A DNA stretch of 64,000 nucleotides. Source: an uncultured delta proteobacterium. Lineage in GTDB: Bacteria; Desulfobacterota; Binatia; Binatales; Binataceae. Location: positions 2,454 through 66,453 of the forward strand of contig CAWCMA010000003.1 of the NCBI GenBank assembly GCA_963796565.1. The letters are read 5' to 3'. This document shows, piece after piece, positions 14,495 to 33,940 of the stretch. The notes below the pieces were generated by a model, which saw only the letters and a list, made by a program, of their open reading frames with translations, was not told the origin of the DNA and did not search any database. The position numbers were made by a program, and so were the translations under genes. How positions within the stretch are numbered: the stretch's first letter is position 1; each line of letters begins with the position of its first letter.

Positions 14495-14512
14495 TGTTCC
14501 ACCTCTCCACCA

Positions 14513-15217: not shown

Positions 15218-15249
15218 TTCACGTACCTCCTTGGTGATCGAATAAAACC

Positions 15250-16679: not shown

Positions 16680-16895
16680 AGTAATCTCTCCTTAACGCCT
16701 TCCTCTTTCGGCGCGTCGGCCGCGTCCTTCCCGTTCTCAACGGCGAATTTCAGAAACGAGAGCTGCTCCGCGGGCGCTGGCTTGACGCGGCGAGGCTTTG
16801 CCGGTGACGACCTGAACGGGCTTCTGGTCAGTCCTGCCGCTCTTGCGGCGCGTACTTCTCCGTGCTGTCCTTCGGTTCCTCGTCATCGTCGTCGG

Positions 16896-18810
16896 CTACC
16901 GGCGGAGCGTATTCGATGCGATCGCTCTTCGGTGGCGGAGCAATCTGCGCAGCCGTTTGAAAGATGGATCGGAGTAGTAGCGAAGTTTCGTCGCTCGAAT
17001 CGCTGGCCGGCCACTGGTGAAGATCAACGCCTCGTTGGAACCCAGCCGCATCGCTTCGTCGGGCGTGATCAGCGGCCTCGCCACTTCCGGCTCCGAGACG
17101 CTCGCACCCGAGCTCGATACGGTCCGATGCGCATGGCGCACTGTGGTTTCCCCGGTCATCTGCGAGAGCAGCCGCGCCGTTTCGATCCGATTCGGAGCGA
17201 ATGCGACGCGCGTATGGCAGTTGGAGGTTATCGCCTCATCGTGCCCGTATGCGGCGTGGATCTGACTCAGATCCTGCGCGATCAGGCACGCTTTGATTCC
17301 GTAGCCGGCGACCAACGACAGGGACTCTGCGAACACGTCGAGCCGCCCGAGACTCGGGAACTCGTCGATCATGAGCAGCAGGCGATGGCGATATCCGGTC
17401 ACCGCTCGGCCGTTTCGAAATTCCAGATGTTCGGTAAGACGATGAAGGATCTGACCCAGCATTAGCCGAATCACCGGCTTGAGGCTGTTCTTGTGTGCGA
17501 GTGGGACCGCGATGTAGAGCGACACGGGCCGTTCGTGATTCATCAGATCTGTAATTCGAAAGTCGGAGACCGCGGTGTTCGCGGCAATGACCGGATCGCG
17601 GTAAAGCTCGAGGAATCCCTTCACCTCCGAGATCACGCCCGAGCGTTCGTTCGGGCTCTTGTCGAGCATGCTGCGCATCGCGCGCGCGATGATCGGATGC
17701 GTCCTGGTCGGAATGCCGCGCGAATCGGTCCAGCCCAGCGAGCCGGATGGATCGTGCTCGGCCCGCATGATCTGCTGCATGGTGTCGTCGATCGGCTGGC
17801 CCGGATCGCACAGGCGCGCTTCCAGTCCGCTGAGAGTCTTGTCCCGTCCGGCATAAAGCTGATCCAGGATCATGCCGGTGAGGAAGGCCGAGCCTTCGCG
17901 CGACCAGTGATCGGGCAGCCCTTTCCCGTCCGGATCGATGATCATTTGCACGATGTTGCGGACATCGCGGATTTCGTTGGGTGTGCCGGAGCCTGACTTC
18001 CGCGAGCGGATTGTAACGAGCGCCGTCGCTGTCGGCTGAGGCGGGTGCGAACTTGAGACAAAGCTGGCCCATTCGTTTCCGAGCTCCGGCCGTGAGCGCC
18101 CAGTTCTCTCCTTTCAGGTCGTGAATCAGGACTGAGTACGGCCAGCTGAGCAGTGTGGGAATCACGATGCCGACGCCCTTGCCGCTCCGCGTTGGCGCGA
18201 AGACCAGGACATGCGCGGGGCCACAATCGCGTATGAATGAAGCTCGTCCCCACTCCCGCCAAACGCCGAGATAGATTCCAGCGCGGCGGGCCCTTGGTCT
18301 CAGAATCCGCAAGCACACACCGATTCCTCGCAGCCATTCGCGTATTGACCTGCGCGCATCGATCAATCGAGCGGCTCTCAGATCACGCGCGGTTGCCCAG
18401 CGCGCGGAACCGTGAAGGTCAGAGACGTTCGCGAACCAACCATGCCGCACCATCGCGATAGCCGCGCAACAAACCGCCGTCACGACCGCCATTGGGTAGA
18501 GCGCCTCGCGAGCGCACTCTTTCCAAAGCGATTGCAGTTGCGGAGCCCAGTACCATCGGGTCCACCAGACAATCCACGACCACGGCGCGTATACTGCTCC
18601 GCCCCTCAGGTGGAAAAGCGGTTGCCCCAGCCACGACGCATGGCGGAGCACGCTCGCCGCGTGCTGTGTTGTCACCGAGTTGATCGCGATGAACGCTCCG
18701 ACCAGTGAAAGCACGGCGCGCCGTTTCGCACGGGCGAGCCTCGCATCCGCTGAGAATCCGGGAATTCGATAGGGACGCTGTTCAGCCATTGCGCTCCCTC
18801 TCCCGTTCAC
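16896..18810 (-). pseudogene. traG: Type IV coupling protein TraG/VirD4 split by a +1 frameshift
   Basis: The N-terminal frame (17236..18810) carries TM helices and Walker A 'VFAPTRSGKGVGIVIPTLL' up to '...ARYNPLAEVRL', then becomes Arg/Pro-rich nonsense. The C-terminal frame (16896..17951) continues 'GTPNEIRDVRNIVQMIIDPDGKGLPDHW...LLLMIDEFPSLG...CLIAQDLSQI'. There is one extra C at ~17986-17991. Confidence 0.85.
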
Positions 18811-19813
18811 GGACCCGATCCATGCCGGAATCGATTGTGCGCTGGCGGCGCGAACGACTCTTGATCACGTCTTTGGAGACTTGGCGCTCACGCAGCTCGC
18901 GTTCATGGTTCTGCGAAAGCTCCCAGCTTCGCTCATCGACGCGCTTGGCAAGTCCTAGCCTTGAAAGAAATTGCAGGCGATCGATCTCTTGTTCAGCTCG
19001 AATCCGGGCTCCCTCGCTGCGCGGTTGGGACTGGTCATACGCGACGAGGCCATTTCCGTCGGCCTTTCTCTGCAACGCGCGGTCGATCTCGGTCCACTGC
19101 TCGCGCCTGACAGCGCGCTCACGCGACCGCAACATCTCGGGCTCCAGCCGCGGACCCAATTCCCGCGTCGCGATCTCCTGGCTCCGGATACGCAGCCCTG
19201 AGCGCAAATACTCGCGGTTGATCTCCAGTGGTCTGCCGTTTTCGCGCACTCCACGAACGAGCAGATGAACATGCGCATCGTCGGTGTTGTGGTGATCGAT
19301 CGCGACCCATTCCAGCTTCGTGTCGAGGTCGCGTTCCATCTGGCCGACCAGCTCGCGAACGTGGTCGCGAAGATTGAGGCGATCGGCATCCTCGGGCGAA
19401 ACGATGAACCGCCACATGAGTTCGTCGCTCTTCTCCCAGTCTCTGACCGTGGCAAGCATGTCGATGTCTTCACGGTCCGCATCGAAGCCCAATCCCTTCG
19501 CCATTTCCTGCTGCGCGCCCGGCCGCGACAAGTAGCGCGCATGGGCAGCCCACGCGCCGCTCCGGCGGTTGCGCGAGAAAGAGGCCTTGACCACGCTGCG
19601 CCGCGCATATGCCGGTGGTTCCGCGATCCGCACTCGCGCCGCGCGCGCGCCGCTTAGACTTCCGCTCGGCTGCTGCCGTCGCAGCCCTTGCCGTATGCCT
19701 ATCCGCCGCAACGCGCGCGCCCACCACGGCACGAGTTTGCGCGGACGCTCCGCATGCTCGTGGCGGAGCTTGATATCGACCTCTTTCTGGCGGAGGAACC
19801 TAGGCCGTTTCAT
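18782..19813 (-). CDS. Relaxase (VirD2-like/DUF3363-type mobilization nuclease), possibly short or truncated
   Basis: 'SVVKASFSRNRRSGAWAAHARYLSRPG...WRFIVSPEDADRL' matches the DUF3363/RlxS-like pattern. The histidine triad 'AIDHHNTDDAHVHLLV' matches relaxase motif III (HxDxxHxH). At 343 aa it is shorter than typical ~600-aa homologues. Confidence 0.75.
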   Translation of the reverse strand: MKRPRFLRQKEVDIKLRHEHAERPRKLVPWWARALRRIGIRQGLRRQQPSGSLSGARAARVRIAEPPAYARRSVVKASFSRNRRSGAWAAHARYLSRPGAQQEMAKGLGFDADREDIDMLATVRDWEKSDELMWRFIVSPEDADRLNLRDHVRELVGQMERDLDTKLEWVAIDHHNTDDAHVHLLVRGVRENGRPLEINREYLRSGLRIRSQEIATRELGPRLEPEMLRSRERAVRREQWTEIDRALQRKADGNGLVAYDQSQPRSEGARIRAEQEIDRLQFLSRLGLAKRVDERSWELSQNHERELRERQVSKDVIKSRSRRQRTIDSGMDRVRERERERNG

Positions 19814-20210
19814 CGCACACCTCGGTCAACGCCTCGCTGAGGGCGAGTACCAGTTTGGTCGGACTCTCCGGCGCCCGCCCGCCGAGCGCTTCGATGATCT
19901 CGCGCAACTGCCCGCTGCTGAGCGTGATCGCGTGCAGATCCTGCGCGCGCCGCCATGACTTCCACGCGCGCTTGCCGGTCGCGCGTTCGTCGAGCTTCTT
20001 CCGCCCGATCGTCGCAACGTGCGCCCGCTGCGCGGGCGTAAGGTCGCCAGCCTCCTGTGCGACGCTGAGCAGGGCGCCCAGCAGAAAGTCGGGCGGCTCC
20101 AGATCGAGGCCTGCCAGCGCGATCAATCCGCCGAGGTTGGCGAGATGATGCACGCGCAGTCCCTGCTCGGGGCTGTGACTGTTGCCATTTCCATTTCCGT
20201 TGCTGTTCAT
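19800..20210 (-). CDS. Hypothetical conjugation-associated protein (136 aa) between traF and the relaxase
   Basis: Starts 'MNSNGNGNGNSHSPEQ...' 4 nt after the traF stop. No recognisable motif. Its position suggests a relaxosome accessory protein. Confidence 0.4.
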   Translation of the reverse strand: MNSNGNGNGNSHSPEQGLRVHHLANLGGLIALAGLDLEPPDFLLGALLSVAQEAGDLTPAQRAHVATIGRKKLDERATGKRAWKSWRRAQDLHAITLSSGQLREIIEALGGRAPESPTKLVLALSEALTEVCDETA

Positions 20211-20215
20211 GGCAT

Positions 20216-20777
20216 TCACCACGTCACGACCGGTTCGATTTCTCCGCGAACGTTCGCGAGCGGAATCGGACCGAAGTAGCGCGAGTCCCAGCTCCGGCGA
20301 TCGTTGAAGCCGAACAGCCACACCTGGCCGGCTGCCGACTCGATGGCTGCCCCACGCGACATGCGGAAGCGGGCGGTGTGCGCTGTCATGGGTGGCAACT
20401 CTGCTGCGCGCGAACCGTGCGCCGTTCACCGCAACCCATCCGGGTTCGATCTCGACGCTATCGCCGGGGAGAGCACCCACGATCTTGCCCACCGGCTCCG
20501 CGTTGCCGGCGCACGCGCCAGTGCGCAGATAGCCGCGCGCGAGACCCTCCTGGGCGATCGGGATCGGCAGGCATGCCGCAACCAATTCGCCACGCTCAAT
20601 CCCGTGAGCGACGACACGATAGACGCCTGCCGGTGCGGCGCTGTCCGTGTTCGAGATCAGTACGCCGAGTGCATTGCCGACTGCGATTAAGAGCGCTGCT
20701 GGCGATCGCAATTCCGGCCATCGCTCCAATGGGTCCGCGAGCGCCTTCCAATTGTTGAAAATGAATGCGCTGGGCAA
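20216..20777 (-). pseudogene. traF: TraF-type S26 signal peptidase (pilin maturation) with an internal frameshift
   Basis: N-terminal frame: '...ACLPIPIAQEGLARGYLRTGACAGNAEPVGKIVGALPGDSVEIEPGWVAVNG...VATHDSAHRPLP'. The peptidase box E 'SWDSRYFGPIPLANVRGEIEPVVTW*' lies in a different frame (60-aa ORF 20216..20398). The frame switch is at ~20340-20380. Confidence 0.75.
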
Positions 20778-21001
20778 GCGATCCGGCGGGGTTTTCTGCC
20801 GTGCTGTACAGTGTGCTGATCATGACTGCCTCCGAGGGGGAAAGGCCGCGAGTTCGTTGAGCAATCCGCCGAAAATGCCGCACCGTACCGCAGGTCCTTT
20901 ATCTTGCTCTACGAACGACCGGCCTTCCCCCCTCTCCAACGCACCCTTCCAATCCACTCCTTCCGCGCGCCGCAAAGCGGCTGAGAAATTCCTGAAAATC
21001 C

Positions 21002-21247
21002 TCACTGCAGTTTCTCCGTCGAAGGTTCGGTTACGCGGCCATTCAGTTTCCGGCCCGGACGTGGGGCACCTTCGAGCTCGGCCTTGATCTGCTTGCAGAG
21101 CCGCCACATCGCCGCCGTGATCGTCTCGCCAAGATCGAAGCCCGCATCTTCGGCCCGACTGCGCAGTTGCTCGATCTCACGCTTGAGCGCCGCAGGCAGC
21201 TTGAACGTGATCGCTTCGCTTTCCTGTTTGCGCTTGAGAACTCCCAT
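21002..21247 (-). CDS. Ribbon-helix-helix (Arc/MetJ-like) DNA-binding protein
   Basis: 81 aa. 'ITFKLPAALKREIEQLRSRAED' is a β-strand plus helix RHH signature. It lies between trbI and traF, a possible relaxosome/oriT accessory position. Confidence 0.5.
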   Translation of the reverse strand: MGVLKRKQESEAITFKLPAALKREIEQLRSRAEDAGFDLGETITAAMWRLCKQIKAELEGAPRPGRKLNGRVTEPSTEKLQ

Positions 21248-21280: not shown

Positions 21281-22413
21281 TCACTTCCCGTATGGGCCGG
21301 GGAATACGAGGTCCTGGGTGATCATCACGTCGAACTGGTAGCCCGGCCGGATTTCAATCGTCGGTGGACGATTTAATCCCTGTCCCATCATTTGCTGACC
21401 CAGTGCCCCGAATTGTCCCGAGGCGGCTGAACCGGCGGTCTGACTCGCCATCGCCCATTGATTCGGTTGGTAGTAACCGTACGGTCCGTAGGAGGCGCCG
21501 CCTCCAAAAGTCGCCATCTGTCCGACGGCCTGGCCTGCGCTGATCAGGCTCATAACGGCGGCGGTTCCGAACGTTGCGAGATAGTGGTGGTCAATCTGAT
21601 CGGAGAAGCCGGCGTAGCCACTCTGATCGGCGCCCGGCATCATCGGCAGATTCATGCTCGAGGTGTTCGGGAAGATGAGCCGCTGCCACGCGATCTGAAC
21701 GCGCTGCTGACCGTATGAAGATGCGTTCTGGTAGGCGCCGATGAGGCGGCTGCCTTGCGGGATGAGAATCGATCTGCCGGTCGCGCTGTCGAGGACGTTC
21801 TGGCTGACCTGCGCGAGAATCGGTCCGGGCAGATCTGAGTTAATGCCACTGATCAGAACGGCAGGGAGGATGCTGCCCGCCATCACGGTGTACGGCGAAG
21901 CGGCGGGGTGAACGCTTATCGTCGGGTTGGTCTGATCACCGGAAGTATACGAGTCAGCCTGCTGTCCGTTTGCGCTCGCGATCTCCAGCGTTCCGCCACT
22001 ATGAAACGCCTGCACCATCTCCGGCGATTCGAGCGCCTTCATGTACTTCTCTTCGGCCCATTGCGCATACCGGCTCGGGAGGCTTCGGCGCGCTGGGCTG
22101 AACGGGCGCTTGCGAGATCGGCATAACCGGTTCCGTCGGCATCACGGTTGGTGCCGCATGCGGCTCTGCGCCATGAGCTGCGAGGTCTTCGATCTCGCCT
22201 CGGTCTCGGGCTGCTGAGCCTGGGTCGTCGGCTGATTTCTGGGAAGAGGAAGTTTGACCTATCCCTGAGGACTGGACGCCGAGTGCAAGCGCCACTCCGC
22301 CGAGCATCGCAATCGCCACGAAAACCACGCCGAGAAGGCGATTGAAACGGCCGCCGCCAAGATGCTCCTGATTCCTGCTCTTCTTGCTCCTGAATCACGT
22401 CTGCGGTTGCCAT
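21281..22413 (-). pseudogene. trbI: TrbI/VirB10 with two frameshifts (three frames)
   Basis: ATG at 22413, 5 nt after the trbG stop, gives 'MATADVIQEQEEQESGAS'. The TM segment 'GGGRFNRLLGVVFVAIAMLGGVALALGV...PKPPEP' is in a second frame (shift at ~22350-22365). 'YAQWAEEKYMKALESPEM...IRPGYQFDVMITQDLVFPGPYGK*' (VirB10 C-terminal domain) is in a third frame (shift at ~22062-22075, extra G in a CCGG run). Confidence 0.8.
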
Positions 22414-22418
22414 GGCCG

Positions 22419-23366
22419 TTACCTCGTTCCTCCTGCGTAGGAGATAGTCACGCGGTCCTGATCGCGGCCCACGCCGGCGACCAGGATCGCATCGCTGAAG
22501 AGCCGATCGACGACGTAGTAGTTGCCTTTGACGCGGTAGTTCACCATCTGGGTTCCGCTGCCGGCATTGATGAGCAGAGCGGGAGCTTCGCTCGACTTCA
22601 TTCCGGCAGGCATCTGGACATAGACGTGAGAACCGTCGTCGAAGGCTCGAACCGGCTTCCACGGAACGTTCGGTCCTGCGACCGTGTAGGCGAAATTGAT
22701 CTGCGCCGGATCTACGGCTGCGACCTTCACGGTGTCGTCGGAATCACCCGGCGGATCGGCCGCTTCCTGCTTGGCCTTCGCTGCGGCGGTGTCGGCATCT
22801 TTCATCGCTGTAGACAGCTCGTCGGGGTAGTAGAACTCCACTTCCTGCATCGCGTGCCCACGCGACCGGAGCACCAGATGGTAAATGTGCTTCGTAGTGT
22901 AAATTGTCAGGTTGGTTTCGATACCCGGGACCTGCGGCTTCACCGCAAGATGAGGAACAGCATTGCGCGGGTCGCCTGAGGCGGCCGGCGTCGCCATCCA
23001 GCGCTCGGTATCTCCCAATGCAACGTCGGTGATCGTCTCGCCCGGCTGCAGCTGAATGTCGGTGGTGCGCAGCGGCGCGCAATCGACGGTCGGCTCCGGT
23101 TCCTGGTTATAGGGATAAAGTGTGTACTCGGCCGTTCGGTAGACGGGCCACTTGCCGTCTTGCTCATGCTCTTTGACTGCACCCTGCACCTCGGACGGCT
23201 GCTGTGCGAGCAGTTGCGCCCCGGTCGGTCGGGGCGGCGCCGCAGTCGGCATCGCGGGAGACTCTGTTACGAGTTTCAGCGGCGGTGGTGCGGGCGGTTG
23301 TTGGTGACTCGCGCACGCACTGAATAAAAGTGCGAGCGTCAAGGTTCCTGTTCCAATATATTTCAT
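22419..23366 (-). CDS. trbG: Conjugal transfer protein TrbG/VirB9 (lipoprotein)
   Basis: Lipoprotein signal 'LTLALLFSAC' and VirB9-like β-rich body. It sits between trbF and trbI. Confidence 0.9.
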   Translation of the reverse strand: MKYIGTGTLTLALLFSACASHQQPPAPPPLKLVTESPAMPTAAPPRPTGAQLLAQQPSEVQGAVKEHEQDGKWPVYRTAEYTLYPYNQEPEPTVDCAPLRTTDIQLQPGETITDVALGDTERWMATPAASGDPRNAVPHLAVKPQVPGIETNLTIYTTKHIYHLVLRSRGHAMQEVEFYYPDELSTAMKDADTAAAKAKQEAADPPGDSDDTVKVAAVDPAQINFAYTVAGPNVPWKPVRAFDDGSHVYVQMPAGMKSSEAPALLINAGSGTQMVNYRVKGNYYVVDRLFSDAILVAGVGRDQDRVTISYAGGTR

Positions 23367-23390: not shown

Positions 23391-24068
23391 CTATCCCTGC
23401 TGCTCGGTCCAGCTGATCTGCGTCACGTAAAAGCCGAGCGGATTGCTGATGATCGCGTCGTCGGAGTTTGGCGGGACTATCTGTGTCTGGAGTACGGCCT
23501 CCCAATGTGTGGGCGCTCCAATCACAACTCCGTTCAGATCGCGCTTTTGTTCCGACCAACGTACCTGGTAGCTGCTGGGCGAGAGCTGAAGAATCGAATC
23601 GATTTGGATCGAGACGGTCTGCTTCTCTGCAAGCTTGAAAGGGTTGTGAGTGAAACTGTCGGAGTGATAGTAGGCGTCGAGGAATCTGTCCGCAGCTCCG
23701 CGCGCATGCGCGAGCATCGAATCGAGCATCTGGTGTTCGACTTGGGGATCGCTGGTGACCGAGCGCGCATCTCGGATGAACGCCGCGACCTCATAGCGCT
23801 GCACTCGCGCAGCTACGTCGGGAACGGACGTCGGATTGAGAGGCTGCGGAACAGTGAGCGCGTAACCGAGTTTGTCGACTTCAACGACGTACGGAATGTA
23901 GCGGCTTCGGCTGATCAGCCAGACCATGCCGCTGGCGAGAATCAGCGAGAGCAGAAGCAGGCCGCAAGCCGCTACCTGCCAGTTGCGTTTGCCGAGAACG
24001 AGATCGGCGTATCGCTCATCCCACTCTCGACGCGCTTCGACGTAGAGATTCGCACCCATCGCGCGCAC
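23391..24068 (-). CDS. trbF: Conjugal transfer protein TrbF/VirB8
   Basis: N-terminal cytoplasmic segment, single TM 'VAACGLLLLSLILASGMVWLI', and a VirB8-like periplasmic domain. First gene of the trbFGI block. Confidence 0.85.
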   Translation of the reverse strand: MRAMGANLYVEARREWDERYADLVLGKRNWQVAACGLLLLSLILASGMVWLISRSRYIPYVVEVDKLGYALTVPQPLNPTSVPDVAARVQRYEVAAFIRDARSVTSDPQVEHQMLDSMLAHARGAADRFLDAYYHSDSFTHNPFKLAEKQTVSIQIDSILQLSPSSYQVRWSEQKRDLNGVVIGAPTHWEAVLQTQIVPPNSDDAIISNPLGFYVTQISWTEQQG

Positions 24069-24254
24069 ACTCCTGATCGCCGCTCGCTCTATAGCGTCGG
24101 TTTAGTGTCCGAGAATTGTCCGACTTCTGTCCGTGAACTGATCCCAACAGGCTCCAAAAGGAACCAAGATGAAGGGATGAAATGGCTTGATTTTGTTGGA
24201 CTATGTAGAGTCGAATCGGGGCGGGTTGCGAGCAGATTCAGTCTTTTAATCAGA

Positions 24255-24284
24255 GGGTCCTGGGTTCAAGTCCCAGACGGCTCA
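24255..24284 (+). other. 3'-terminal tRNA gene fragment (T-arm plus acceptor 3' strand); probable att-site scar of the integrated element
   Basis: 'CTGGG-TTCAAGT-CCCAG-ACGGCTC-A' is a perfect 5-bp T-stem with a TΨC-type loop, then a 7-nt acceptor strand and a discriminator. No matching 5' acceptor strand, D-arm or anticodon arm can be folded from the ~75 nt upstream, so this is a fragment and not a gene. It lies 190 bp from trbF at the edge of the conjugative block, followed by AT-rich DNA. Confidence 0.5.
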
Positions 24285-24863
24285 CTCAAAACCCTCAGAA
24301 GCATTGAATCTCTTCTAGGCCCAACAAAGGTCAAGAGCTGTTGAGTCTGTTGATATAGACACAAAATAGACCTTTTGCTCGAGCTGGAAGGAGGCTGACC
24401 CCGGCACCGGAATGAAGACCCTGGTAATTCCTTTGGCTTGGAACCGCCACGCGCCCTGAAGGGCGCTCGCAGGCTGAACCTGAGCGCAGTACGGCGCAAA
24501 CGTAGCCTCCAGGAAAATCAGTACAAGGAAGCGCCGGAGGAGCAGACCTCAGACGCGCTCTCTCTGCCTCGCTGACATGGCCCGATCTATCGGTCTGTAT
24601 CAGGCGCTCGCACGCGATGTACTGTCGGCGTCCTGCCGAGCCCGTTTCCAGCATCATATCAGAGGCAAAATTCCAGTCGAATCAATCAAAAATACAAAAT
24701 TTATAATACAATCTATGGCTATTTGACTCTAGCAGTGATTATCTGTAGCTTTCCTTATCGAAAATCACGTGATAATCGTTGCGATGGCTTTGATCATGCT
24801 GGCAGGCATCCGAAAATCTGAGCAAGGACATCTCATTACACCATAGGGCGAGGGAAAAAAACA

Positions 24864-27800
24864 ATGTTTGACCCGGAAGCTCTGAGGTCGAGAGCGCGCG
24901 TCCTGACAGCCACTAGGGTGATTGCGCTAGCAGCGTTCGCTGCAATAATTCTGGCCGGCGGGGTTTCCACCGCGCCCGCTCATCCAGCCACTTCATCAAC
25001 CAGCCATCGGGCAGTGAATAAAAGCGCCGCGGCCGCGCGCCGCGCCTCGCTGCCACTTTATTTTGAACCCAACGTCGGACAGAGCGATCCGCATGTGCGG
25101 TTTCTCTCACAGTCCAGTCGTTACTCTCTCTTTCTCACTGATGAGGGAGCGGTGTTCTCGCTGGTCGGCGGTGAAATTCACCAAGGCCCCGCGCTCGCGA
25201 CCGTCAACCCGCCGCGTCAGCCGCAAGCGGATCGGCTGGTCGAGTCTGCAGTGCGAATTCGGATGGTCGGGGCGAATTCGCATCCCAGGATGAACGCGGA
25301 GGAGCCACTGGCGGGCCGCGTCAACTACCTGATTGGAAACGACCCCGCGAAGTTCCATCGCGCGGTGCCCACTTACGGCCGCGTGCGGGTGAGCGGCGTT
25401 TACCCCGGAATTGACGTGGTCTATTACGGGATGCCGAATTCCTTGGAGTACGATATCGTCGCGAGGCCGGGTGCCGACGTCTCGCGCATCCGTGTCGCGA
25501 TCGAGGGCGGCGCCAAGACCGCGGTGGATGCGAGTGGCAATCTCGAAATCAAAACCGCAGCAGGGACGATCGCGATGCACAAGCCGCATGCTTACCAGCG
25601 CGCGGCCGATGGCAGCGAAATCCCGGTCGAAAGCTCGTTCGTGGCGGCCAAGGGACCGGCGCAGCCCGAGTTCATAATTCAGCTCGCCCGCTACGATCGC
25701 ACGCAACCGTTGACAATCGACCCGACCGTACAGCTTCTGTACTCGAGCTATATTGGTGGAGCAGGGGAGATCACCGGTCCGGTCACCCTCAAGCAACTCT
25801 CGGGATTGACGGGTAGTGATGCGCTGATCACCGCTGACGTCGGCACCGACGTGGCGGTCGACCCGACCAACATGGCCTACATTACCGGCGTTGCATATTC
25901 GACGCCATCCAGCTTTCCGCTGGTCGGCGCTTTTCAAAGCACTCAGACAGGCGCTCCCGATCTGAACCCGGTCGGTTTCATTGCCAAGTTCGACACGACC
26001 AAGTCGGGTGTCGCGTCGCTTATCTATTCGACGTATATCGGCGGCAGCGGTGACACCGACGACGCTGACTCTGGGCATGGCAATGGGGATCTGCCCTTTG
26101 GCATCGCGGTCGACGCCTCAGGCGAGGCCTTCGTTGTGGGCCAGACGTACTCAGCCGACTTCCCGGAAACCAGCACCTGCGGCTCGTTCGGACAAGCAAA
26201 GGATGGAGCCGCGAATGTAAGCAACGGCTTCGTGGCCAAACTGAACGGCGCCGGCAGCGCGATCGTGTACGCCTGCTACATCAATGGTACGAACGGCGCG
26301 ACCGAATCCCGGGTCGCACTGTTTCCGGCCGGATGCGACGCCAGCACTACGCTGTGTAAGGCCTACGTATCCGGCTCCTCCCAGAGCGGCCACGCCGCTG
26401 ACTTCCGGCTGACTGCCAACGCCTTCCAGACCACCGTGAAGGATCTCAACGATAAAAACAGCGCCACCTTCATCGTGGTCCACGAAGACGGCCAGTCGCT
26501 GGATTATGCGACCCTCTATGGAGGCTCTGGCAATGGCACCAATGGTGACATCGGAATCAGCGTGGCGGTAGATGCGAGCGGACACGGTTATATCACCGGC
26601 GCGACCCACTCGGGCGATCTGGTCACGCAAAATCCAGCGGTCCTCCACTACAATACGAACGCCCGCGCGAAGAAGGTCAGCAACGTATTCGTCGCCGAGT
26701 TCGATCCCACGGCTCTTACCGGCGCCGCGTCGCTGCTCTATGCGACCTACCTCGGCGGCTCGGGCGCAACCGGTGCGATTAAGTCGGGCGCCAGCACGGT
26801 TTTTTCGCTCGCGCTCGGCGACATCGGCACCGCGATCAGAATCGACCCGGTTACCAGTCATATTTGGGTGGCGGGAACGACCGCATCGACCGATTTCCAG
26901 GTGCCGGGCACGGTGACGCCGGTGTTTGAGTCGACCAACGAGGCCGGGTCGGTCGTCGCTGCGGGTTCACCTGCGACGGCAGGATTCATCACCGAACTGG
27001 ATCCCACTCAGTCCGGACTCAGCCAGATTGGCTATTCGACCTATTTCGGTGGCGGGGGATCACAGATTAGCGCCGCGTCTCCGGACACCGGCAGTGTTGG
27101 AATAGGCGATGCGATTAGCGATCTCGAAATCGTGGGCGGCAAAATCTACGTCACCGGCGCCACCGCGAGTGGAGCCTTGGCGGAGGGTTTTCCTCTGAGT
27201 GGCAACGCGTGCCATAAGGTCAACCATAGCAGCGGAGTCACAATAGACGGGGTCCCTGTCCCCGTTACCGCTTTCGCATCAGAACTCGATCCGTCACAGC
27301 CGACCGTTGACGCCCAGCTCGTCTTCTCGACCCTGCTAGGCGGCACCGGAACGGAGGACGCCGGCACCGGATTGGCGATCGATTCCTCTGGAGACATGGT
27401 GATCTCGGGTCTTACCTACTCCGGAAACTTCCCGGTTACCACGTCCGGGTTCCAGCCCAACAACAAGGCAACTGGGGCGAGCGCGACCAACGCCTTCCTG
27501 AGCGTTCTCTATCCGCTCGGCACCGCCTGCGGGTCTGCTGGCGGAACTCCGGTTCCGACGCCCACCCCGAACCCATCACCGACACCGACACCGACACCGA
27601 CGCCGACTCCGACGCCTACTCCGACGCCAGTTCCATTAGGCGGCAGGATCTCTCTCTCGGCCAATCCGGTGGACTTTCCCAACGCAGGACTCGGTGAAGC
27701 GCCGTCGCACAGGAATTTTCTAATTCAGAACCTGAGCGCAGGTCATAGGCTGGCGGGCTATGTCGGAGCGCCGAGCGGGCCCTTCAGCATCACCACGGGC

Positions 27801-28289
27801 GGCGGTGCGTTCAACCTCCCTCGGCTCGGCATGCTGAAGGTCAAGATGAATTTTGCACCCGGCGAACCGGGCCTCGAGAAAGGCTCGTTGATCATCCTGA
27901 GCGGCGATCCACTCCATCCGTCGATCGTGGTGAATCTGCGGGGCACCGGCGAGCCGGGCAGGCTCACGACCAACATCCCAGTGACGCTCGACAACAAGCT
28001 CGCGTTTGGCCCTGTTGCACTCAACGGGTCACCAAAACTCCTGAGTTTCAAGATCAAAAATATTGGCGAGGGCGATCTGCAGGGCAACGTGCCGTCGCTG
28101 TCATTGCCGTTCACGGTTATACGAGGCGGCGGTCCGTTTGACCTGGCGCCCGGACATGGTGAACTGGTGACAGTACTGTTCACGCCGACGGCTATGGGTC
28201 ATGTCAGCCAGTCGCTTACGATCGCCGTCACCCCGCCCAGTAGGCCGTCGGCTGGGATCACGGTTACGGTCGCCGGCAGAGGAACCTGA
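24864..28289 (+). CDS. Secreted SBBP (β-propeller) repeat protein with a Pro/Thr linker and C-terminal ASH/'choice-of-anchor D' Ig-like domains
   Basis: 1141 aa. N-terminal signal-anchor. Multiple SBBP-type repeats ('YSTYIGGSGDTD...GIAVDASGEAFVVGQTYSADFP', 'YATYLGGSG...', 'YSTYFGGGG...'). Linker 'TPVPTPTPNPSPTPTPTPTPTPTPTPTPVP'. Two C-terminal ASH-like β-sandwich domains. Confidence 0.85.
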   Translation: MFDPEALRSRARVLTATRVIALAAFAAIILAGGVSTAPAHPATSSTSHRAVNKSAAAARRASLPLYFEPNVGQSDPHVRFLSQSSRYSLFLTDEGAVFSLVGGEIHQGPALATVNPPRQPQADRLVESAVRIRMVGANSHPRMNAEEPLAGRVNYLIGNDPAKFHRAVPTYGRVRVSGVYPGIDVVYYGMPNSLEYDIVARPGADVSRIRVAIEGGAKTAVDASGNLEIKTAAGTIAMHKPHAYQRAADGSEIPVESSFVAAKGPAQPEFIIQLARYDRTQPLTIDPTVQLLYSSYIGGAGEITGPVTLKQLSGLTGSDALITADVGTDVAVDPTNMAYITGVAYSTPSSFPLVGAFQSTQTGAPDLNPVGFIAKFDTTKSGVASLIYSTYIGGSGDTDDADSGHGNGDLPFGIAVDASGEAFVVGQTYSADFPETSTCGSFGQAKDGAANVSNGFVAKLNGAGSAIVYACYINGTNGATESRVALFPAGCDASTTLCKAYVSGSSQSGHAADFRLTANAFQTTVKDLNDKNSATFIVVHEDGQSLDYATLYGGSGNGTNGDIGISVAVDASGHGYITGATHSGDLVTQNPAVLHYNTNARAKKVSNVFVAEFDPTALTGAASLLYATYLGGSGATGAIKSGASTVFSLALGDIGTAIRIDPVTSHIWVAGTTASTDFQVPGTVTPVFESTNEAGSVVAAGSPATAGFITELDPTQSGLSQIGYSTYFGGGGSQISAASPDTGSVGIGDAISDLEIVGGKIYVTGATASGALAEGFPLSGNACHKVNHSSGVTIDGVPVPVTAFASELDPSQPTVDAQLVFSTLLGGTGTEDAGTGLAIDSSGDMVISGLTYSGNFPVTTSGFQPNNKATGASATNAFLSVLYPLGTACGSAGGTPVPTPTPNPSPTPTPTPTPTPTPTPTPVPLGGRISLSANPVDFPNAGLGEAPSHRNFLIQNLSAGHRLAGYVGAPSGPFSITTGGGAFNLPRLGMLKVKMNFAPGEPGLEKGSLIILSGDPLHPSIVVNLRGTGEPGRLTTNIPVTLDNKLAFGPVALNGSPKLLSFKIKNIGEGDLQGNVPSLSLPFTVIRGGGPFDLAPGHGELVTVLFTPTAMGHVSQSLTIAVTPPSRPSAGITVTVAGRGT

Positions 28290-28330
28290 ACGCGACGCGG
28301 CGCGGGGCCATGCCCCGCGTCGCGTTGCAC
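28290..28330 (+). terminator. GC-rich hairpin immediately after the SBBP gene stop (putative intrinsic terminator, no U-tract)
   Basis: 'AACGCGACGCGGCGCGGGGC-CAT-GCCCCGCGTCGCGTT' is an imperfect ~15-bp stem starting 1 nt after the TGA. Confidence 0.35.
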
Positions 28331-28609
28331 GTGAAAGCGCATGGCAAAAAGACCTGGCCGCAGGGTGAGCAGATGCTCGCTCTTCACCTTGCGAAAGTGG
28401 AACAAGCGACGGGTTTAGACATCGACCTAGGCAAGATCGTGAAGCTGTACGAATTTGAAGCGCGTGGACGACGCGCTGCTCGATGAGTCCAACGCGTCAA
28501 TCGACGCTTAGGAGAGTCGCGAATCCGGCCTGTTGGCGTTCCTGATGCTAGCGGCTATCAGCACCAGGATCGAATGTCGTATAGGCTTAGGTAAGCTCGA
28601 CGCCGCAGC

Positions 28610-28816
28610 TCATTGAGGGCCTACGGATGCCTCAGTCATCCAACGCTCTATCTGGTCCTTTCGGAATCGCCAGTCGGCGCCAACCCGAAAGCTTGGGATT
28701 TTGCCATACCTAAGCATCCTGTAAAGCGTGGTCGGATGCACTCGCAATAGGCTGGAAACTTCTTTTAACGTCAAAATCTCATCAGTCTTCGCCAATGGTC
28801 TACTCCTTCTATTCAA
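28610..28816 (-). CDS. Excisionase/AlpA-family helix-turn-helix DNA-binding protein (orphan)
   Basis: 68 aa. 'LTLKEVSSLLRVHPTTLYRMLRYGKIPSFRVGADWRFRKDQIERWM' is the canonical excisionase-family HTH (MerR-like winged helix). No integrase is adjacent. Confidence 0.7.
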   Translation of the reverse strand: MNRRSRPLAKTDEILTLKEVSSLLRVHPTTLYRMLRYGKIPSFRVGADWRFRKDQIERWMTEASVGPQ

Positions 28817-29110
28817 GATCTGAAGCGGCTACCCACTACACGGTTGCAATAGCCATGCCTCGAAAATGCTCGTGTTTATTCTTTTTGACGGTCAGTCTTA
28901 CTGAGCTAGCTGGCAAATTTTTCTGAGTGCCTTCCCGGCTTTACCGAATCGGCCTCCTGGGATGCCTCAGGCGACGAAGCCCGCCGGCGCGCGGTCACCG
29001 TCGTCCTCCCAAAGAAATCTCGCTATCGTGCAGGACGGTCATGAAGCTGGACCGAGCCGCACGAACATCCGCGTTCGCCTGTCCAACGGCCAATCAGTGA
29101 GAGAAACCAA

Positions 29111-30157
29111 ATGCGTGTGCTGACCACCTTACCTCAGGAAGACCTCCGCAGAGTGCCGGATGCAGCGCGCGAAGCTGAACGGGCCGGCTTCGACGGGTTG
29201 ATCACCCTGGAGAATCGTAACGACCCGTTTCTGGCGCTCGGGGTCGCGGCGGTGGCCACGGAGAAAATCGAGCTGGGCACGGCGGTCGCGATCGCGTTTC
29301 CCCGCAGCCCGATGGTGGTGGCGAACATCTCCTGGGATCTGCAGATCGCTTCGCGCGGCCGGTTTGTGCTGGGCCTGGGCCCCCAGATCCGGCCTCACAA
29401 CGAGAAGCGCTTCAGCGTTCCCTGGACGGCTCCAATTGCGCGTCTTCGCGAGTACGTCCTCGCGCTACGGGCAATCTGGACCGCGTGGGAAAAGGGCGAA
29501 AAGCTGCGCTTCGAGGGCGAGCACTACACGTTCACCCTGATGACGCCGAATTTTGTGCCACCCTCGATGGGCCTGCCGATGACGCCAGTAACGCTCGCCG
29601 CGGTCGGACCCAAGGCGTTACGACTTGCAGGTGAGGTGGGGGACGGAGTGCGGTTGCATCCATTCTGCACTCGTCGTTATCTGGACGAAGTCGTGTTGCC
29701 GGGATTGCGGGAGGGGCTCATCAAGAGCGGCCGCAGCCTGGAACACTTCGAAGTGTCTGGCGGCGGCTTCATCGCGACGGGGCCGGACGACGCCGCCGTG
29801 GCCGGCATGTTCGAGTGGGTGCGAACGCGCATCGGTTTCTACGGATCGACTCCCGGCTACTGGCCAGTGCTGGAATTGCACGGCCTGGGCGATCTCGGCC
29901 GCAAGCTGAACGTTCTTTCGAAGCAGGGGAAATGGGCGGAGATGACGGCCTCGATCAGCGATGACGTAGTCCGTTTGTTCGCGGCCGTTGGCATCCACAA
30001 AGAGATCGCCGGCGCCGTCGAGCGGCGCTTCGGAAATCTGAGCGATGCCGTATTTGCCAGCATCAATTCGACCATCCGTTCCGATTTACCGCCCGACGTG
30101 CTTGCGGACATCCATCGGATTCCGGTCAGGTTCAAGGGTTACGCAAAGGCGTGGTGA
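29111..30157 (+). CDS. LLM-class (luciferase-like) flavin/F420-dependent oxidoreductase
   Basis: 348 aa TIM-barrel LLM pattern: 'GFDGLITLENRNDPF...GTAVAIAFPRSPMVVANISWDLQIASRGRFVLGLG'. Confidence 0.85.
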   Translation: MRVLTTLPQEDLRRVPDAAREAERAGFDGLITLENRNDPFLALGVAAVATEKIELGTAVAIAFPRSPMVVANISWDLQIASRGRFVLGLGPQIRPHNEKRFSVPWTAPIARLREYVLALRAIWTAWEKGEKLRFEGEHYTFTLMTPNFVPPSMGLPMTPVTLAAVGPKALRLAGEVGDGVRLHPFCTRRYLDEVVLPGLREGLIKSGRSLEHFEVSGGGFIATGPDDAAVAGMFEWVRTRIGFYGSTPGYWPVLELHGLGDLGRKLNVLSKQGKWAEMTASISDDVVRLFAAVGIHKEIAGAVERRFGNLSDAVFASINSTIRSDLPPDVLADIHRIPVRFKGYAKAW

Positions 30158-30324
30158 ACGATGAACAGGGTGGCCGAGCGGATCACCCAACTTAGCGGTG
30201 AGCCGAATTTCAACCCGGAAGGGATGGCTTCGCGCAGCCATTCGGAATACCAGGAGGGCTCTAGCCTCGTCGAAATGATCAAGGAAGACCTGCTCCGCCA
30301 TAGGTTCTCAATCGTGAGGCGTCT

Positions 30325-30516
30325 CTACCGGCTGGTCGGAGGGGAATCGACGCCGGTGGCGAGCGAAGTGATGCTGTTGCCGAGCGCTCTGTAGGTGCCG
30401 TAGACCACGACCGCGATGGCCGCCACGATGAGCGCGTATTCCGTCATCGTCTGTCCCCGAGTGCTGCGAACCACGGACTCCTGGGCGCGGATGAACGTCT
30501 TCATCACTAACTTCAC
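30325..30516 (-). CDS. flp: Flp/Fap-family type IVb prepilin (orphan)
   Basis: Leader '...STRG' then 'QTMTEYALIVAAIAVVV', matching the Flp motif G/XXXXEY plus a hydrophobic helix. 63 aa. No tad/cpa genes are nearby. Confidence 0.75.
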   Translation of the reverse strand: MKLVMKTFIRAQESVVRSTRGQTMTEYALIVAAIAVVVYGTYRALGNSITSLATGVDSPPTSR

Positions 30517-30861
30517 TTTCTCATCTCCCCTTTTATCGTCCTTTGAGAGCTATTGAAGCTATATTTTTTGCTTTATTTTATCTAGAGATGAAAAACAGTT
30601 CATTTGCAGTCTTAGGCAATTCTTACTATCTAGGATGGTTCCTTGTGCTTTTAAATATCTCTATGTAGCGTACAATAGCAAGAGTGTTTCATTTCAGCGC
30701 CAAGACTTCCAAGGGCATCATAAGGCATCAGTTGACGGACCGGGCCGGCAACTGTTCTCGATGGGCGGCTACCTCGATCTGCCATGACCAATCGCGATAA
30801 ATATTCTCCTGCTTGATTCCATAGGCAGAGCCGCTGAGACCTCTCGCTAAAGGAAGACCAG

Positions 30862-32232: not shown

Positions 32233-32388
32233 GGCGAGCGTCGCGCGGTGCTCCAGCACGTTCATCCCCGCATCGGATAGTTTTTCTACCGAGATTTGTG
32301 TCGCGGATCTTCTCTCCTGTCGTTGGTAGGAGTTCTCGCGGTCTCGTCGAAAGTTACAGACGGCCGGTACGTTGATGCATCGTGCGAT

Positions 32389-32414
32389 GTAACTAATCAC
32401 GATCGCGTGAGAAC
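32389..32414 (+). promoter_or_regulatory. Candidate ECF-σ-dependent promoter upstream of the σ/anti-σ operon (GTAACT-N16-GAAC)
   Basis: 'GATGTAACT-aatcacgatcgcgtga-GAAC' at 32386-32414. An identical motif and spacing recurs at 33938-33966 upstream of msrA. Confidence 0.4.
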
Positions 32415-33920: not shown

Positions 33921-33940
33921 TTCGGATGCCGTTCGCGGAT

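What the first reader, a model, noticed from the sequence alone, without database searches (positions are those of the whole stretch)
24250..24860. 3' tRNA-gene fragment (T-arm plus acceptor) at the edge of the element: probable att direct-repeat scar
At 24255-24284, 'CTGGGTTCAAGTCCCAG ACGGCTC A' forms a textbook T-stem-loop plus the 3' acceptor strand. The upstream 75 nt cannot supply a matching 5' acceptor, D-arm or anticodon arm, so this is a partial tRNA (or tmRNA) 3' end. This is the signature of site-specific integration into the 3' end of a tRNA or tmRNA gene. It sits 190 bp from trbF and is followed by ~570 bp of AT-rich non-coding DNA. The cognate full tRNA and the integrase should be at the other boundary, outside or degraded within the 3.85-8.8 kb scarred zone.
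Basis: seen in the sequence. Interest (0 to 1): 0.6.

Follow-up and report, generated by a model that had tools for sequence, protein, structure and literature searches.

The report
tRNA-Lys scar beside a decayed ICE
A 42-base leftover of a lysine tRNA gene marks where a conjugative mobile element once inserted into the chromosome of an uncultured Binataceae soil bacterium; this is an ordinary integration scar, and the element is now broken and has lost its other end.

Summary
Window 24243-24284 (+) is a 42/42 exact copy of positions 32-73 (anticodon loop to discriminator) of the native Binataceae tRNA-Lys(UUU) gene. No whole tRNA is present, and the bases upstream resemble a 5' half no better than chance.

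The fragment lies 183 nt from trbF, the first gene of a P-type (Trb) conjugation module with an RlxS-like relaxase. In relatives of this element trbF is always the terminal gene. It is preceded by a homologous arm and a tRNA piece that differs between elements: Lys, Thr-CGU and Leu-UAA fragments, or an intact Arg-ACG.

A related MAG has an intact tRNA-Lys at the same chromosomal position. A variable segment follows the tRNA in both (1.66 kb there, 6.0 kb in the window), and after it come orthologues of the window's Flp, FAD, sigma, NrsF, MsrA and MADH genes.

So this is the displaced tRNA fragment (attR) left by a tyrosine-integrase crossover in the anticodon-loop sublocation, which is the commonest known class.

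The window's element is a fossil. Six conjugation genes are frameshifted. No integrase, intact tRNA-Lys or second repeat is in the window. Native DNA resumes at about 4091 next to IS remnants.

This is a new member of a known kind, of low to moderate interest.

The parts
24243..24284 (+). Displaced 3' fragment of tRNA-Lys(UUU), positions 32-73: anticodon loop, 3' anticodon stem, variable loop, T-arm, 3' acceptor strand and discriminator. This is the core or identity block of attR.
   Evidence: It is 42/42 identical to intact tRNA-Lys genes of Binataceae MAGs. ARAGORN finds no tRNA. Rfam scores 17.8 bits, below the gathering score of 29.
24060..24242 (-). Element-side arm (P arm) between the tRNA fragment and trbF. 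It carries three CGGACA repeats phased 11 nt apart (TGTCCG on the + strand at 24106, 24117, 24128) and the conserved blocks AATCAAGCC and CAGTTCACGGAC. These are candidate arm-type or regulatory protein-binding sites, and the trbF promoter region probably lies here too.
   Evidence: 81% identical over 112 nt to the arm of the Lys-type relative L015. Aligns with the Thr-type arms. It is the only cluster of three or more CGGACA motifs within 60 nt anywhere in the window. The same phased repeats occur on both sides of the core in L129.
23394..24059 (-). trbF (VirB8 family), the terminal gene of the element. It is intact.
   Evidence: Pfam VirB8, E = 4e-44. 92% identical over the full length to L004 TrbF. 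It is the first gene next to the tRNA piece in all relatives.
21284..23366 (-). trbG (22422-23366, intact) and trbI (21284-22394, frameshifted pseudogene).
   Evidence: Pfam CagX and TrbI. trbI matches L004 TrbI in two reading frames. trbG gives a single full-length match.
18785..21247 (-). Conserved 81-aa and 61-aa genes, traF (S26 peptidase, frameshifted into three frames), a traD-like gene, and an RlxS-like relaxase (18785-19813, intact).
   Evidence: NCBIfam relax_RlxS matches the N-terminal half at E = 9e-58.
16679..18789 (-). traG coupling-protein pseudogene: four pieces in three reading frames.
   Evidence: tblastn with the 702-aa L004 TraG. Pfam hits are split over two ORFs.
8852..16679 (-). 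147-aa gene, trbB, trbC (frameshifted), trbD, trbE, trbJ (frameshifted), trbL (frameshifted) and RepB-type primase. RepB is the last recognisable element gene.
   Evidence: The gene order is identical in relatives L031-L035 and L130.
4092..8848 (.). Scar zone: low-G+C, gene-poor DNA with an IS3-like remnant abutting RepB (about 8300-8750), an IS110-like N-terminal remnant (about 5663-5824) and an orphan collagen-like secreted protein gene (5957-6847). It has no integrase, no tRNA and no homology to relatives' cargo.
183..4091 (-). Native chromosome on the left: a hybrid histidine kinase with one frameshift at about 3460, plus its roughly 400-bp upstream region. Homology to the orthologous locus ends at 4091.
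   Evidence: 86% aa identity and 81% nt identity to L117/L118. L117's next genes are absent from the window, and L117 has no tRNA.
24285..30288 (+). Segment directly 3' of the fragment, variable between genomes: a 579-bp spacer at 50% G+C, a DUF7948/SBBP 1141-aa protein, a luciferase-like monooxygenase and a 77-aa ORF. L018 has an unrelated 1.66 kb here. Its origin is unresolved.
30289..36790 (+). Native tRNA-Lys downstream region, collinear with the locus that carries the intact tRNA-Lys in MAG L018: Flp pilin, FAD oxidoreductase, ECF sigma, NrsF, MsrA and MADH-like.
   Evidence: 77-82% nt identity and 80-89% aa identity to L018.

Best explanation
Window 24243-24284 is the displaced 3' fragment of the chromosomal tRNA-Lys(UUU) gene. 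It is the attR core of an integrative and conjugative element (ICE), from a family common in uncultured Binataceae, whose conjugation module occupies about 8.85-24.06 kb.

**Proposed mechanism**
- The circular element carried an attP containing a copy of tRNA-Lys positions 32-73, flanked by arms with phased CGGACA repeats.
- A tyrosine integrase exchanged strands in or near the anticodon loop of the chromosomal gene.
- That exchange regenerated an intact tRNA-Lys at the far (cargo and integrase) end. It left the original 3' part of the gene stranded next to trbF.
- The element then decayed in place. Six conjugation genes acquired frameshifts.
- An IS-associated deletion or rearrangement removed everything beyond RepB: the cargo, the integrase and the regenerated tRNA-Lys. 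What remains is joined to an unrelated histidine-kinase locus at about 4091.

**Shown**
- The fragment's identity and its sharp boundary at the anticodon loop.
- The conserved terminal position of trbF, next to tRNA pieces, in relatives.
- An intact tRNA-Lys at the same chromosomal position in a relative.
- The pseudogenes.
- The absence of a partner in the window.

**Inferred**
- The crossover position.
- The identity of the integrase. The candidate is a 353-382-aa tyrosine recombinase seen at the far end of relatives.
- The function of the CGGACA repeats.
- The deletion history.
For: 1. **Identity of the fragment.** It is a 42/42 match to the intact tRNA-Lys(UUU) of 14 Binataceae-type loci (GAGCCGTTAGCTCAGGCCGGTAGAGCATCTGA|CTTTTAATCAGAGGGTCCTGGGTTCAAGTCCCAGACGGCTCA). 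Identity stops exactly at position 32, both in the window and in the independent Lys-type relative L015.
2. **No whole tRNA.** The upstream bases are at chance level against the native 5' half.
3. **Conserved arrangement in relatives.** Relatives with 80-92% TrbF identity keep the order trbF-trbG-trbI-81aa-61aa-traF-traD-rlx-traG-147aa-trbB-C-D-E-J-L-repB, and trbF is always terminal. It is preceded on the opposite strand by a 3' fragment of Thr-CGU (L004-7, L129) or Leu-UAA (L008-11), or on the same strand by an intact Arg-ACG (L119-128).
4. **Flanks differ between relatives.** The DNA beyond the tRNA piece is host-like core genes in some and another ICE's integrase in others, as expected for an element edge.
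5. **Occupied versus unoccupied site.** L018 has an intact tRNA-Lys followed, after a variable segment, by orthologues of the window's genes at 30.3-36.8 kb.
6. **An attP-like junction in a relative.** In the 40-kb contig L129/L130, only mobile-element genes are visible. The far-end genes (ligase-C-like, tyrosine recombinase) are joined to trbF across the Thr fragment, and phased CGGACA repeats lie on both sides.
7. **Decay.** trbI, traF, traG, trbC, trbJ and trbL are frameshifted. Four right-flank host genes with orthologues show no frameshift.
8. **Known framework.** A tDNA is split by a tyrosine integrase, and the displaced fragment marks the island end. 3760 of 3919 Islander islands leave 3' fragments, and 2083 have anticodon-centred attP sites (PMC4383910).
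Against: - The second repeat, the regenerated tRNA-Lys and the integrase are not in the window. The window's own contig could not be retrieved to look further left. The integration event is therefore reconstructed from one end only.
- The 6.0 kb immediately right of the fragment (24285-30288) has no counterpart in L018. The native status of the DNA that directly abuts the fragment is therefore not shown. Collinearity is shown only from 30289 onward.
- No complete integrated relative with both ends was recovered. None of 41 relatives' loci has a tRNA within 10 kb beyond RepB.
- The cognate integrase is only a candidate.
- Some frameshifts could be assembly errors if the 519-kb contig came from long reads. 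The host kinase also has one. However, no homopolymer of five or more bases is seen at the sites inspected.
Confidence: 0.87

Rival explanations
1. The fragment is not a chromosome and element junction (attR). Instead it is an internal attP-like or tandem junction: the 6 kb to its right (DUF7948 protein, luciferase-like gene) would also be mobile DNA, either the far end of the same element or a second island. The true chromosomal junction would then lie near 30289.
For: 24285-30288 has no homology to L018, which carries a different 1.66 kb at that position. Its GC3 (0.71-0.77) is nearer the element's than the core genes'. attP-like or tandem junctions do exist in relatives (L129, L004/5). tRNA genes accumulate tandem islands (PMC4383910).
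Against: - There is no integrase, no second tRNA-Lys fragment and no CGGACA repeat cluster anywhere in 24285-30400.
- The gene content is not that of the family's far end as seen in L129/L130 or L031-35.
- The first bases after the fragment (CTCAAAA) resemble L018's native trailer (CCCTTAAAA).
- Even if this rival is true, the fragment would still be an att core produced by the same mechanism.
Confidence: 0.08
2. It is a whole tRNA-Lys gene copy, either a duplicate or element-borne, that has decayed in its 5' half. It would then be a pseudogene rather than a recombination product.
For: The Rfam tRNA model aligns end to end over 24208-24284. GAGUCG at 24208-24213 can pair with CGGCUC in the 3' acceptor strand.
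Against: - The score is 17.8 bits against a gathering score of 29.
- Similarity of 24208-24242 to the native 5' half is at chance level: 69% of shuffles reach it.
- The 3' 42 nt carry no substitutions while the 5' part is unrecognisable. That is incompatible with uniform decay.
- The same sharp boundary at position 32 occurs in L015. The upstream bases are homologous to the element arm, not to a tRNA.
- Relatives carry fragments of other tRNAs that break at the same sublocation.
Confidence: 0.03
3. The match arose by chance, or the region is an assembly chimera that joins an element contig to a tRNA-Lys locus.
For: The window comes from a metagenome-assembled genome. Its own contig could not be retrieved for inspection.
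Against: - A 42/42 match cannot arise by chance in 64 kb.
- The same junction (Lys fragment, homologous arm, trbF) was assembled independently in another MAG, L015.
- Analogous junctions were assembled in more than 20 contigs from different samples.
Confidence: 0.02

Closest known systems
tDNA-integrated genomic islands and ICEs with an anticodon-loop ('A') crossover sublocation (Williams 2002; Islander database, PMC4383910)
   Same: A tRNA gene is the target. A 3' tDNA fragment is displaced to the distal end of the island. The identity block runs from the anticodon loop to the 3' end of the gene. In relatives, tyrosine recombinases are associated with the far end.
   Different: Only the fragment end survives here. 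The regenerated tRNA and the integrase are missing, so Islander's own criteria (tDNA, cognate fragment and integrase in one replicon interval) cannot be met within the window.
ICEMlSymR7A and related Mesorhizobium ICEs (IntS, RdfS, rdfS-traF-rlxS region; PMC11963761, PMC8627217)
   Same: - A P-type Trb mating-pair system.
- An RlxS-family relaxase preceded by a traF (S26 peptidase) gene and small upstream genes.
- Integration into a tRNA gene by a tyrosine integrase.
- An attP with reiterated arm-type motifs.
   Different: - The host is Binataceae, not an alphaproteobacterium.
- The relaxase is half the length (344 aa against a 654-position model).
- trbF-G-I are separated from trbB-L and placed at the element terminus next to att.
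- The family uses several tRNA targets (Lys, Thr, Leu, Arg) rather than tRNA-Phe.
- The identity block is 42-45 nt from the anticodon loop. My recollection is that the ICEMlSymR7A core is a short segment at the 3' end of phe-tRNA, but I did not check this.
- The 81-aa gene matched no Pfam or NCBIfam family. No RdfS model is known to be among those libraries, and no direct comparison with RdfS was made.
Tn4371-family ICEs (PMC2789088)
   Same: The conjugation core traG, trbBCDEJL(FGI), plus a tyrosine integrase at one end.
   Different: In this family trbFGI precede traF, rlx and traG rather than following trbL. A RepB-type primase follows trbL. Tn4371-type elements are not typically tRNA-targeted (from memory, not tested).

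Membership tests
tDNA-integrated island or ICE (Islander definition) | A fragment of a tRNA gene that is identical or near-identical to part of a real tRNA gene of the host | tested here: met
   42/42 identity to intact tRNA-Lys(UUU) in 14 Binataceae-type loci.
tDNA-integrated island or ICE (Islander definition) | Correct orientation: the broken (5') side of the 3' fragment faces the island, and its 3' end faces the chromosome | tested here: met
   The anticodon side abuts the arm and trbF. On the 3' side, genes collinear with L018's tRNA-Lys locus follow from 30289.
tDNA-integrated island or ICE (Islander definition) | The cognate intact (regenerated) tDNA at the other end of the island, in the same replicon | tested here: not met
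   No tRNA in the window. No trace of the 5' half or leader. The left junction at 4091 is a non-tRNA locus.
tDNA-integrated island or ICE (Islander definition) | A tyrosine integrase gene inside the island | tested here: not met
   tblastn with two tyrosine integrases and a serine recombinase from relatives' loci found no remnant of them in the window. The ORFs picked by length and GC3 between 183 and 46262 (apart from the 1396-aa ORF at 37036-41226 and three short ones) gave no recombinase domain in Pfam. ORFs beyond 46.3 kb were not scanned. Candidate integrases are seen only in relatives (L129, L090).
tDNA-integrated island or ICE (Islander definition) | The crossover falls in a recognised sublocation (anticodon loop, T-loop or T/acceptor junction) | tested here: met
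   Identity begins at position 32, the first base of the anticodon loop. The Thr and Leu fragments of relatives also begin at the anticodon loop or stem. Subsites as defined in PMC4383910.
Integrative and conjugative element (ICE) | A self-encoded conjugation apparatus: relaxase, coupling protein and mating-pair formation T4SS | tested here: met
   The genes are present: an RlxS-like relaxase, TraG and TrbB-C-D-E-J-L-F-G-I. In the window six of them are pseudogenes. They are intact in relatives.
Integrative and conjugative element (ICE) | Excision to a circular form with attP, followed by re-integration | not testable with these tools
   Only indirect evidence: the 40-kb contig L129/L130 joins the far end to trbF across the tRNA-Thr piece. 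The contig ends could not be read to test circularity.
ICEMlSymR7A-type ICEs | An RlxS-family relaxase with an upstream traF | tested here: inconclusive
   NCBIfam relax_RlxS gives E = 9e-58, but only 196 bits against a cutoff of 850, and only over model positions 44-321 of 654. traF lies upstream.
ICEMlSymR7A-type ICEs | An RdfS-type recombination directionality factor upstream of traF | tested here: inconclusive
   The conserved 81-aa and 61-aa genes sit in the equivalent position but hit no Pfam or NCBIfam model. No structure comparison was run.

The most novel reading that the evidence does not exclude
Two readings go beyond an ordinary scar, and the evidence does not exclude either.

1. 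The Binataceae ICE family may have its attachment site placed directly in front of trbF-G-I, splitting the usual trbB...L-F-G-I operon. In that case the terminal trb genes would be transcribed from the other end of the element only after excision and circularisation. That would be an excision-coupled switch for building the mating apparatus.
2. The int/att module may be swapped freely between tRNA targets (Lys, Thr, Leu, Arg) and in both orientations, on an almost unchanged backbone with 80-92% TrbF identity.

The phased CGGACA repeats on both sides of the core would be the shared architectural sites.
Probability: 0.15. Interest if true: 0.5.

Novelty: new member of a known kind. Interest (0 to 1): 0.3.

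Why it matters
**For this window.** The fragment fixes the right-hand boundary of the mobile region to the base: the element ends at 24242 and the tRNA-derived core is 24243-24284. It also shows that the conjugation cluster is an immobile fossil, not an active plasmid or ICE. The genes to its right from 30.3 kb onward are chromosomal.

**More broadly.** The result documents a widespread, apparently undescribed ICE family in Binataceae, an uncultured soil lineage. No paper in the searched library links Binatia or Binatota with ICEs. Elements with near-identical backbones use at least four different tRNA genes. This may be useful for mobile-element annotation and for mining integrase and attB pairs, but it does not change any concept.

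Tried and rejected
- **My first impression of a whole decayed tRNA.** GAGCAG...CTTTTAATCAG and GAGUCG/CGGCUC pairing suggested it. Rejected: a shuffle test shows the 5' part is at chance level, and the same bases are homologous to the element arm in L015.
- **A rhizobial origin.** Microvirga megaplasmid hits suggested it. These are only generic tRNA-Lys 3' fragments. The TrbF and RepB relatives and all 19 exact 23-mer matches are from Binataceae-type MAGs.
- **An inversion model.** Homologues of the histidine kinase lie just upstream of intact tRNA-Lys in six MAGs, which suggested that the intact tRNA lies just left of the window. Rejected: those are 48%-identical paralogues. The true 86% orthologue (L117/118) has no tRNA nearby.
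- **A second repeat copy or degenerate fragments in the window.** None found.
- **Integrase or recombinase remnants in the window.** tblastn with the L004 and L129 integrases and the L035 serine recombinase found none. The only hit is a spurious read-through of the L004 ORF over the homologous arm.
- **The element's integrase end in relatives.** Searched within 10 kb beyond RepB in 41 loci. No tRNA was found, because the cargo region is longer than that.
- **Retrieval of the window's own contig** to read left of position 1. It failed twice.
- **Near-identical DNA in the plasmid collection.** None found. The best plasmid TrbF is 38% identical.
Full report
**1. The observation**

It is unique in the window at up to 3 mismatches, and no match occurs in 100 shuffles.
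- ARAGORN finds no tRNA or tmRNA gene anywhere in the 64 kb. Rfam finds nothing at gathering thresholds.
- A permissive Rfam scan aligns the tRNA model end to end over 24208-24284, but only at 17.8 bits against a gathering score of 29. It shows a Lys-type anticodon loop CUUUUAA.
- That made me suspect a whole decayed tRNA. A direct test rejects the idea. The 35 nt upstream of the loop align to the native 5' half no better than shuffled sequence: 3459 of 5000 shuffles score at least as high.

**2. What the fragment derives from**

- I scanned one genome per prokaryotic species for the 23-mer GGGTTCAAGTCCCAGACGGCTCA. It gave 19 loci, all in Candidatus Binataceae or similarly labelled soil MAGs. 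ARAGORN calls the matched site an intact tRNA-Lys(UUU) in 14 of those loci.
- The native gene is GAGCCGTTAGCTCAGGCCGGTAGAGCATCTGA-CTTTTAA-TCAGAGGGTCCTGGGTTCAAGTCCCAGACGGCTCA.
- The window is identical to it for the 42 nt from the first base of the anticodon loop (position 32) to the discriminator, at 24243-24284. It is unrelated immediately upstream.
It derives from tRNA-Lys, not tmRNA, and it breaks at the anticodon loop.
- CCA is not encoded (CTC follows). The closest intact gene also lacks it (CCC in L018), so this is native.

**3. The neighbour on the left is the end of a conjugative element**

On the minus strand, reading away from the fragment, the genes are:

- trbF (VirB8), trbG and trbI
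- conserved 81-aa and 61-aa genes
- traF (S26 peptidase) and a traD-like gene
- a relaxase whose N-terminal half matches NCBIfam RlxS (E = 9e-58)
- traG and a 147-aa gene
- trbB-C-D-E-J-L and a RepB-type primase

TrbF and RepB have hundreds of 70-92% identical relatives in soil metagenomes. Where these are named, they are Candidatus Binataceae. The best TrbF on any catalogued plasmid is only 38% identical.

In every relative whose context I fetched, the gene order is the same and trbF is the terminal gene.

**4. Relatives carry tRNA pieces at the same place**

| tRNA piece upstream of trbF | Strand relative to trbF | Loci |
|---|---|---|
| 3' fragment of Thr(CGU), ...TTCGTAATCAGCAGGTCGTCGGTTCGAATCCGACGGGTGGCTCCA | opposite | L004-L007, L129 |
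| 3' fragment of Leu(UAA) | opposite | L008-L011 |
| same Lys fragment as the window | opposite | L015 (an independent MAG) |
| intact Arg(ACG) | same | L119-L128 |

- None of the fragments is an intact tRNA by ARAGORN.
- In L015 the Lys fragment is followed by an arm 81% identical to the window's, and then by trbF-trbG-trbI.
- Beyond the tRNA piece the flanks are unrelated to each other. They include esterase, GST and patatin genes; the pst-pho operon and serS; a PEP-mutase-like gene; and, in L004/5/7, the excisionase and integrase end of a different ICE in tandem.
- This pattern is what the ends of a site-specifically integrated element look like, and the family uses several tRNA targets.
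- The anticodon side of each fragment faces trbF. The element therefore lies on the trbF side, and the 3' end of the fragment faces outward.

**5. The right side is the tRNA-Lys locus**

- MAG locus L018 has an intact tRNA-Lys. It is followed by orthologues of the window's Flp pilin, FAD oxidoreductase, ECF sigma factor, NrsF, MsrA and MADH-like genes, at 80-89% aa identity and 77-82% nt identity. These are collinear with window 30289-36790.
- Directly 3' of the tRNA the two genomes differ. The window has 6.0 kb (a 579-bp spacer at 50% G+C, a 1141-aa DUF7948/SBBP protein, a luciferase-like monooxygenase and a 77-aa ORF). L018 has an unrelated 1.66 kb.
- I cannot tell whether the 6 kb is native or an older islet. 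It has no integrase, no second fragment and no arm repeats.

**6. The arm**

- Between the fragment and trbF (24060-24242) lie three CGGACA motifs spaced exactly 11 nt apart. They are the only such cluster in the window.
- The arm also has blocks conserved with L015, L004 and L129.
- In L129 the same phased repeats occur on both sides of the tRNA-Thr core.
- By analogy with the reiterated P/arm-type sites of IntS in the ICEMlSymR7A attP (PMC11963761), these are candidate integrase-arm or directionality-factor sites. This is inference only. They could instead be operators of the trbF promoter.

**7. The far end in relatives**

- Beyond RepB lies variable cargo: methyltransferases, R-M systems, ArdC, ParB-like, BrxC/D-like and AAA ATPases, and in some relatives a serine recombinase.
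- No tRNA lies within 10 kb of RepB in any of 41 loci, so the cargo region is long.
- The 40-kb contig covered by L129 and L130 shows only mobile-element genes over the 35 kb I could read. Its far-end genes are joined to trbF across the Thr fragment.
- Those far-end genes are a ligase-C-like gene, which recurs just after RepB in six distant relatives, and a 353-aa tyrosine recombinase. The recombinase has a homologue 8.5 kb past RepB in L090 and a remnant 114 nt from tRNA-Lys in L030.
- This looks like attP on a circular or tandem element and gives a candidate cognate integrase. It is not proof.

**8. The window's element is a fossil with one end missing**

- Compared with intact relatives, six genes are each split over two or more reading frames: trbI, traF, traG, trbC, trbJ and trbL. 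That is about ten frameshifts in 15 kb.
- The four right-flank host genes that have orthologues show none. The kinase on the left has one.
- The sites inspected are not long homopolymers, but I cannot exclude assembly error.
- Directly after RepB comes an IS3-like remnant. Then follow 4.7 kb of low-G+C, gene-poor DNA with an IS110-like remnant and an orphan collagen-like protein gene.
- Native DNA resumes at 4091. This is the upstream region and body of a hybrid histidine kinase whose 86% orthologue (L117/118) sits in a locus with no tRNA. That locus's next genes are absent from the window.
- The window holds no trace of the tRNA-Lys 5' half or leader, no second copy of the repeat and no integrase remnant.
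It was removed or moved by a later event, probably IS-associated.

**9. Mechanism and comparison**

- The best explanation is the standard one. Islander describes it as follows: a tyrosine integrase splits a tDNA, island sequences restore the gene, and the displaced fragment marks the island end. 3760 of its 3919 islands leave a 3' fragment, and 2083 have an anticodon-centred attP (PMC4383910).
- The window's fragment is the displaced piece (attR core) of an A-sublocation event.
- The conjugation and relaxase genes most resemble the ICEMlSymR7A and Tn4371 kind. The differences are that trbF-G-I are moved to the element terminus, the relaxase is half-length and RlxS-like, and a RepB primase follows trbL.
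- Within the window, two defining features of an Islander-type island were tested and not met: the intact cognate tDNA and the integrase. I therefore file it as the surviving end of such an island, not as a complete one.

**10. Verdict**

- This is a new member of a well-known kind. Its modest extra interest is that the ICE family seems undescribed: no paper in the library links Binatia or Binatota with ICEs. The family also retargets among at least four tRNA genes.
- Interest: 0.3.

Noticed in passing
window 9757-22394: Six conjugation genes (trbL, trbJ, trbC, traG, traF, trbI) are each split across reading frames relative to intact relatives. trbF, trbG, trbB, trbD, trbE, the relaxase, traD and RepB are intact. 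The element is a decaying remnant.
   Followed up: yes
window 3458-3690: The host hybrid histidine kinase has a frameshift at about 3460. Residues 1-76 of the orthologue are encoded in another frame at 3463-3690. The database copy of this protein (P0241, 1089 aa) is accordingly shorter than its orthologues (1180-1226 aa).
   Followed up: partly
window 5957-6847 (-): An orphan 296-aa secreted protein lies in the scar zone. It has a collagen-like GPQGPQGPAGPAGPSG stretch, many cysteines and a weak CBM_5_12 hit. Its GC3 is low (0.61), and it has no homologue in any fetched locus.
   Followed up: no
window 24864-30157: A 1141-aa DUF7948/SBBP beta-propeller protein with a C-terminal Ig-like domain, and a luciferase-like monooxygenase, occupy a 6-kb segment directly 3' of the tRNA-Lys fragment. 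This segment is absent from the orthologous locus L018, which has a different 1.66 kb there. It may be a second variable islet at the same tRNA hot spot, with no recognisable att site or integrase.
   Followed up: partly
window 41556-42950 and 45713-45778: An intact-looking IS110-family transposase gene lies immediately upstream of a CarboxypepD_reg-type TonB-dependent receptor gene. A tandem pair of 33-nt repeats (85% identical) lies just downstream of a response-regulator gene.
   Followed up: no
L004 8593-10044 (also L005, L007): A different ICE (TrbI, DUF2274, T4CP, TrwC relaxase, SSB, HTH_17, tyrosine integrase) lies in tandem at the same tRNA-Thr site. Its integrase ORF reads through the tRNA fragment and the neighbouring element's arm, up to the trbF start. 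GATAGGCACCA direct repeats lie just before the fragment.
   Followed up: partly
L022 1-900: A 5' remnant of a more distant trbF (65% identical, residues 4-74) lies about 300 nt downstream of an intact tRNA-Lys, on the same strand. It is truncated by a transposase-like fragment. The 3' part of a tRNA-Leu(CAA) lies at the contig start. This geometry differs from the window's and is unexplained.
   Followed up: partly
L119-L128 (for example L119 9710-10000): In one sublineage of the element family (TrbF 88% identical to the window's), trbF is preceded by an intact tRNA-Arg(ACG) on the same strand, not by a fragment on the opposite strand. The att core is therefore inverted relative to the backbone. 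TTTCCGACA direct repeats lie in the arm.
   Followed up: partly
L012, L013/L019, L014, L023, L024: Other Binataceae MAGs carry additional tRNA-Lys 3' fragments that are not associated with this element family. One example is two copies 674 bp apart in L024. Another is a conserved arm ...TTTTCGTGCAGATTGTGC.GACGATTG.GGTCGATT downstream of the tRNA in L014, L023 and L025. tRNA-Lys is a general integration hot spot in this clade.
   Followed up: no
L001-L003 (Microvirga megaplasmids NZ_CP069356, NZ_CP016617, NZ_CP141050): Several Microvirga megaplasmids each carry one to three 3' fragments of an alphaproteobacterial tRNA-Lys(UUU), running from the anticodon stem to CCA, with no intact tRNA nearby. 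Some are followed by a conserved hairpin AAACCCTTAACCGGCGAGGGTTT. These are presumably att scars of unrelated elements.
   Followed up: no
L034 11241-12916 and L035 8304-10506: Some relatives carry a large serine recombinase with an adjacent DUF2924 gene right after RepB. It is intact in L035 and frameshifted in L034. It may be cargo or an alternative integration module.
   Followed up: no
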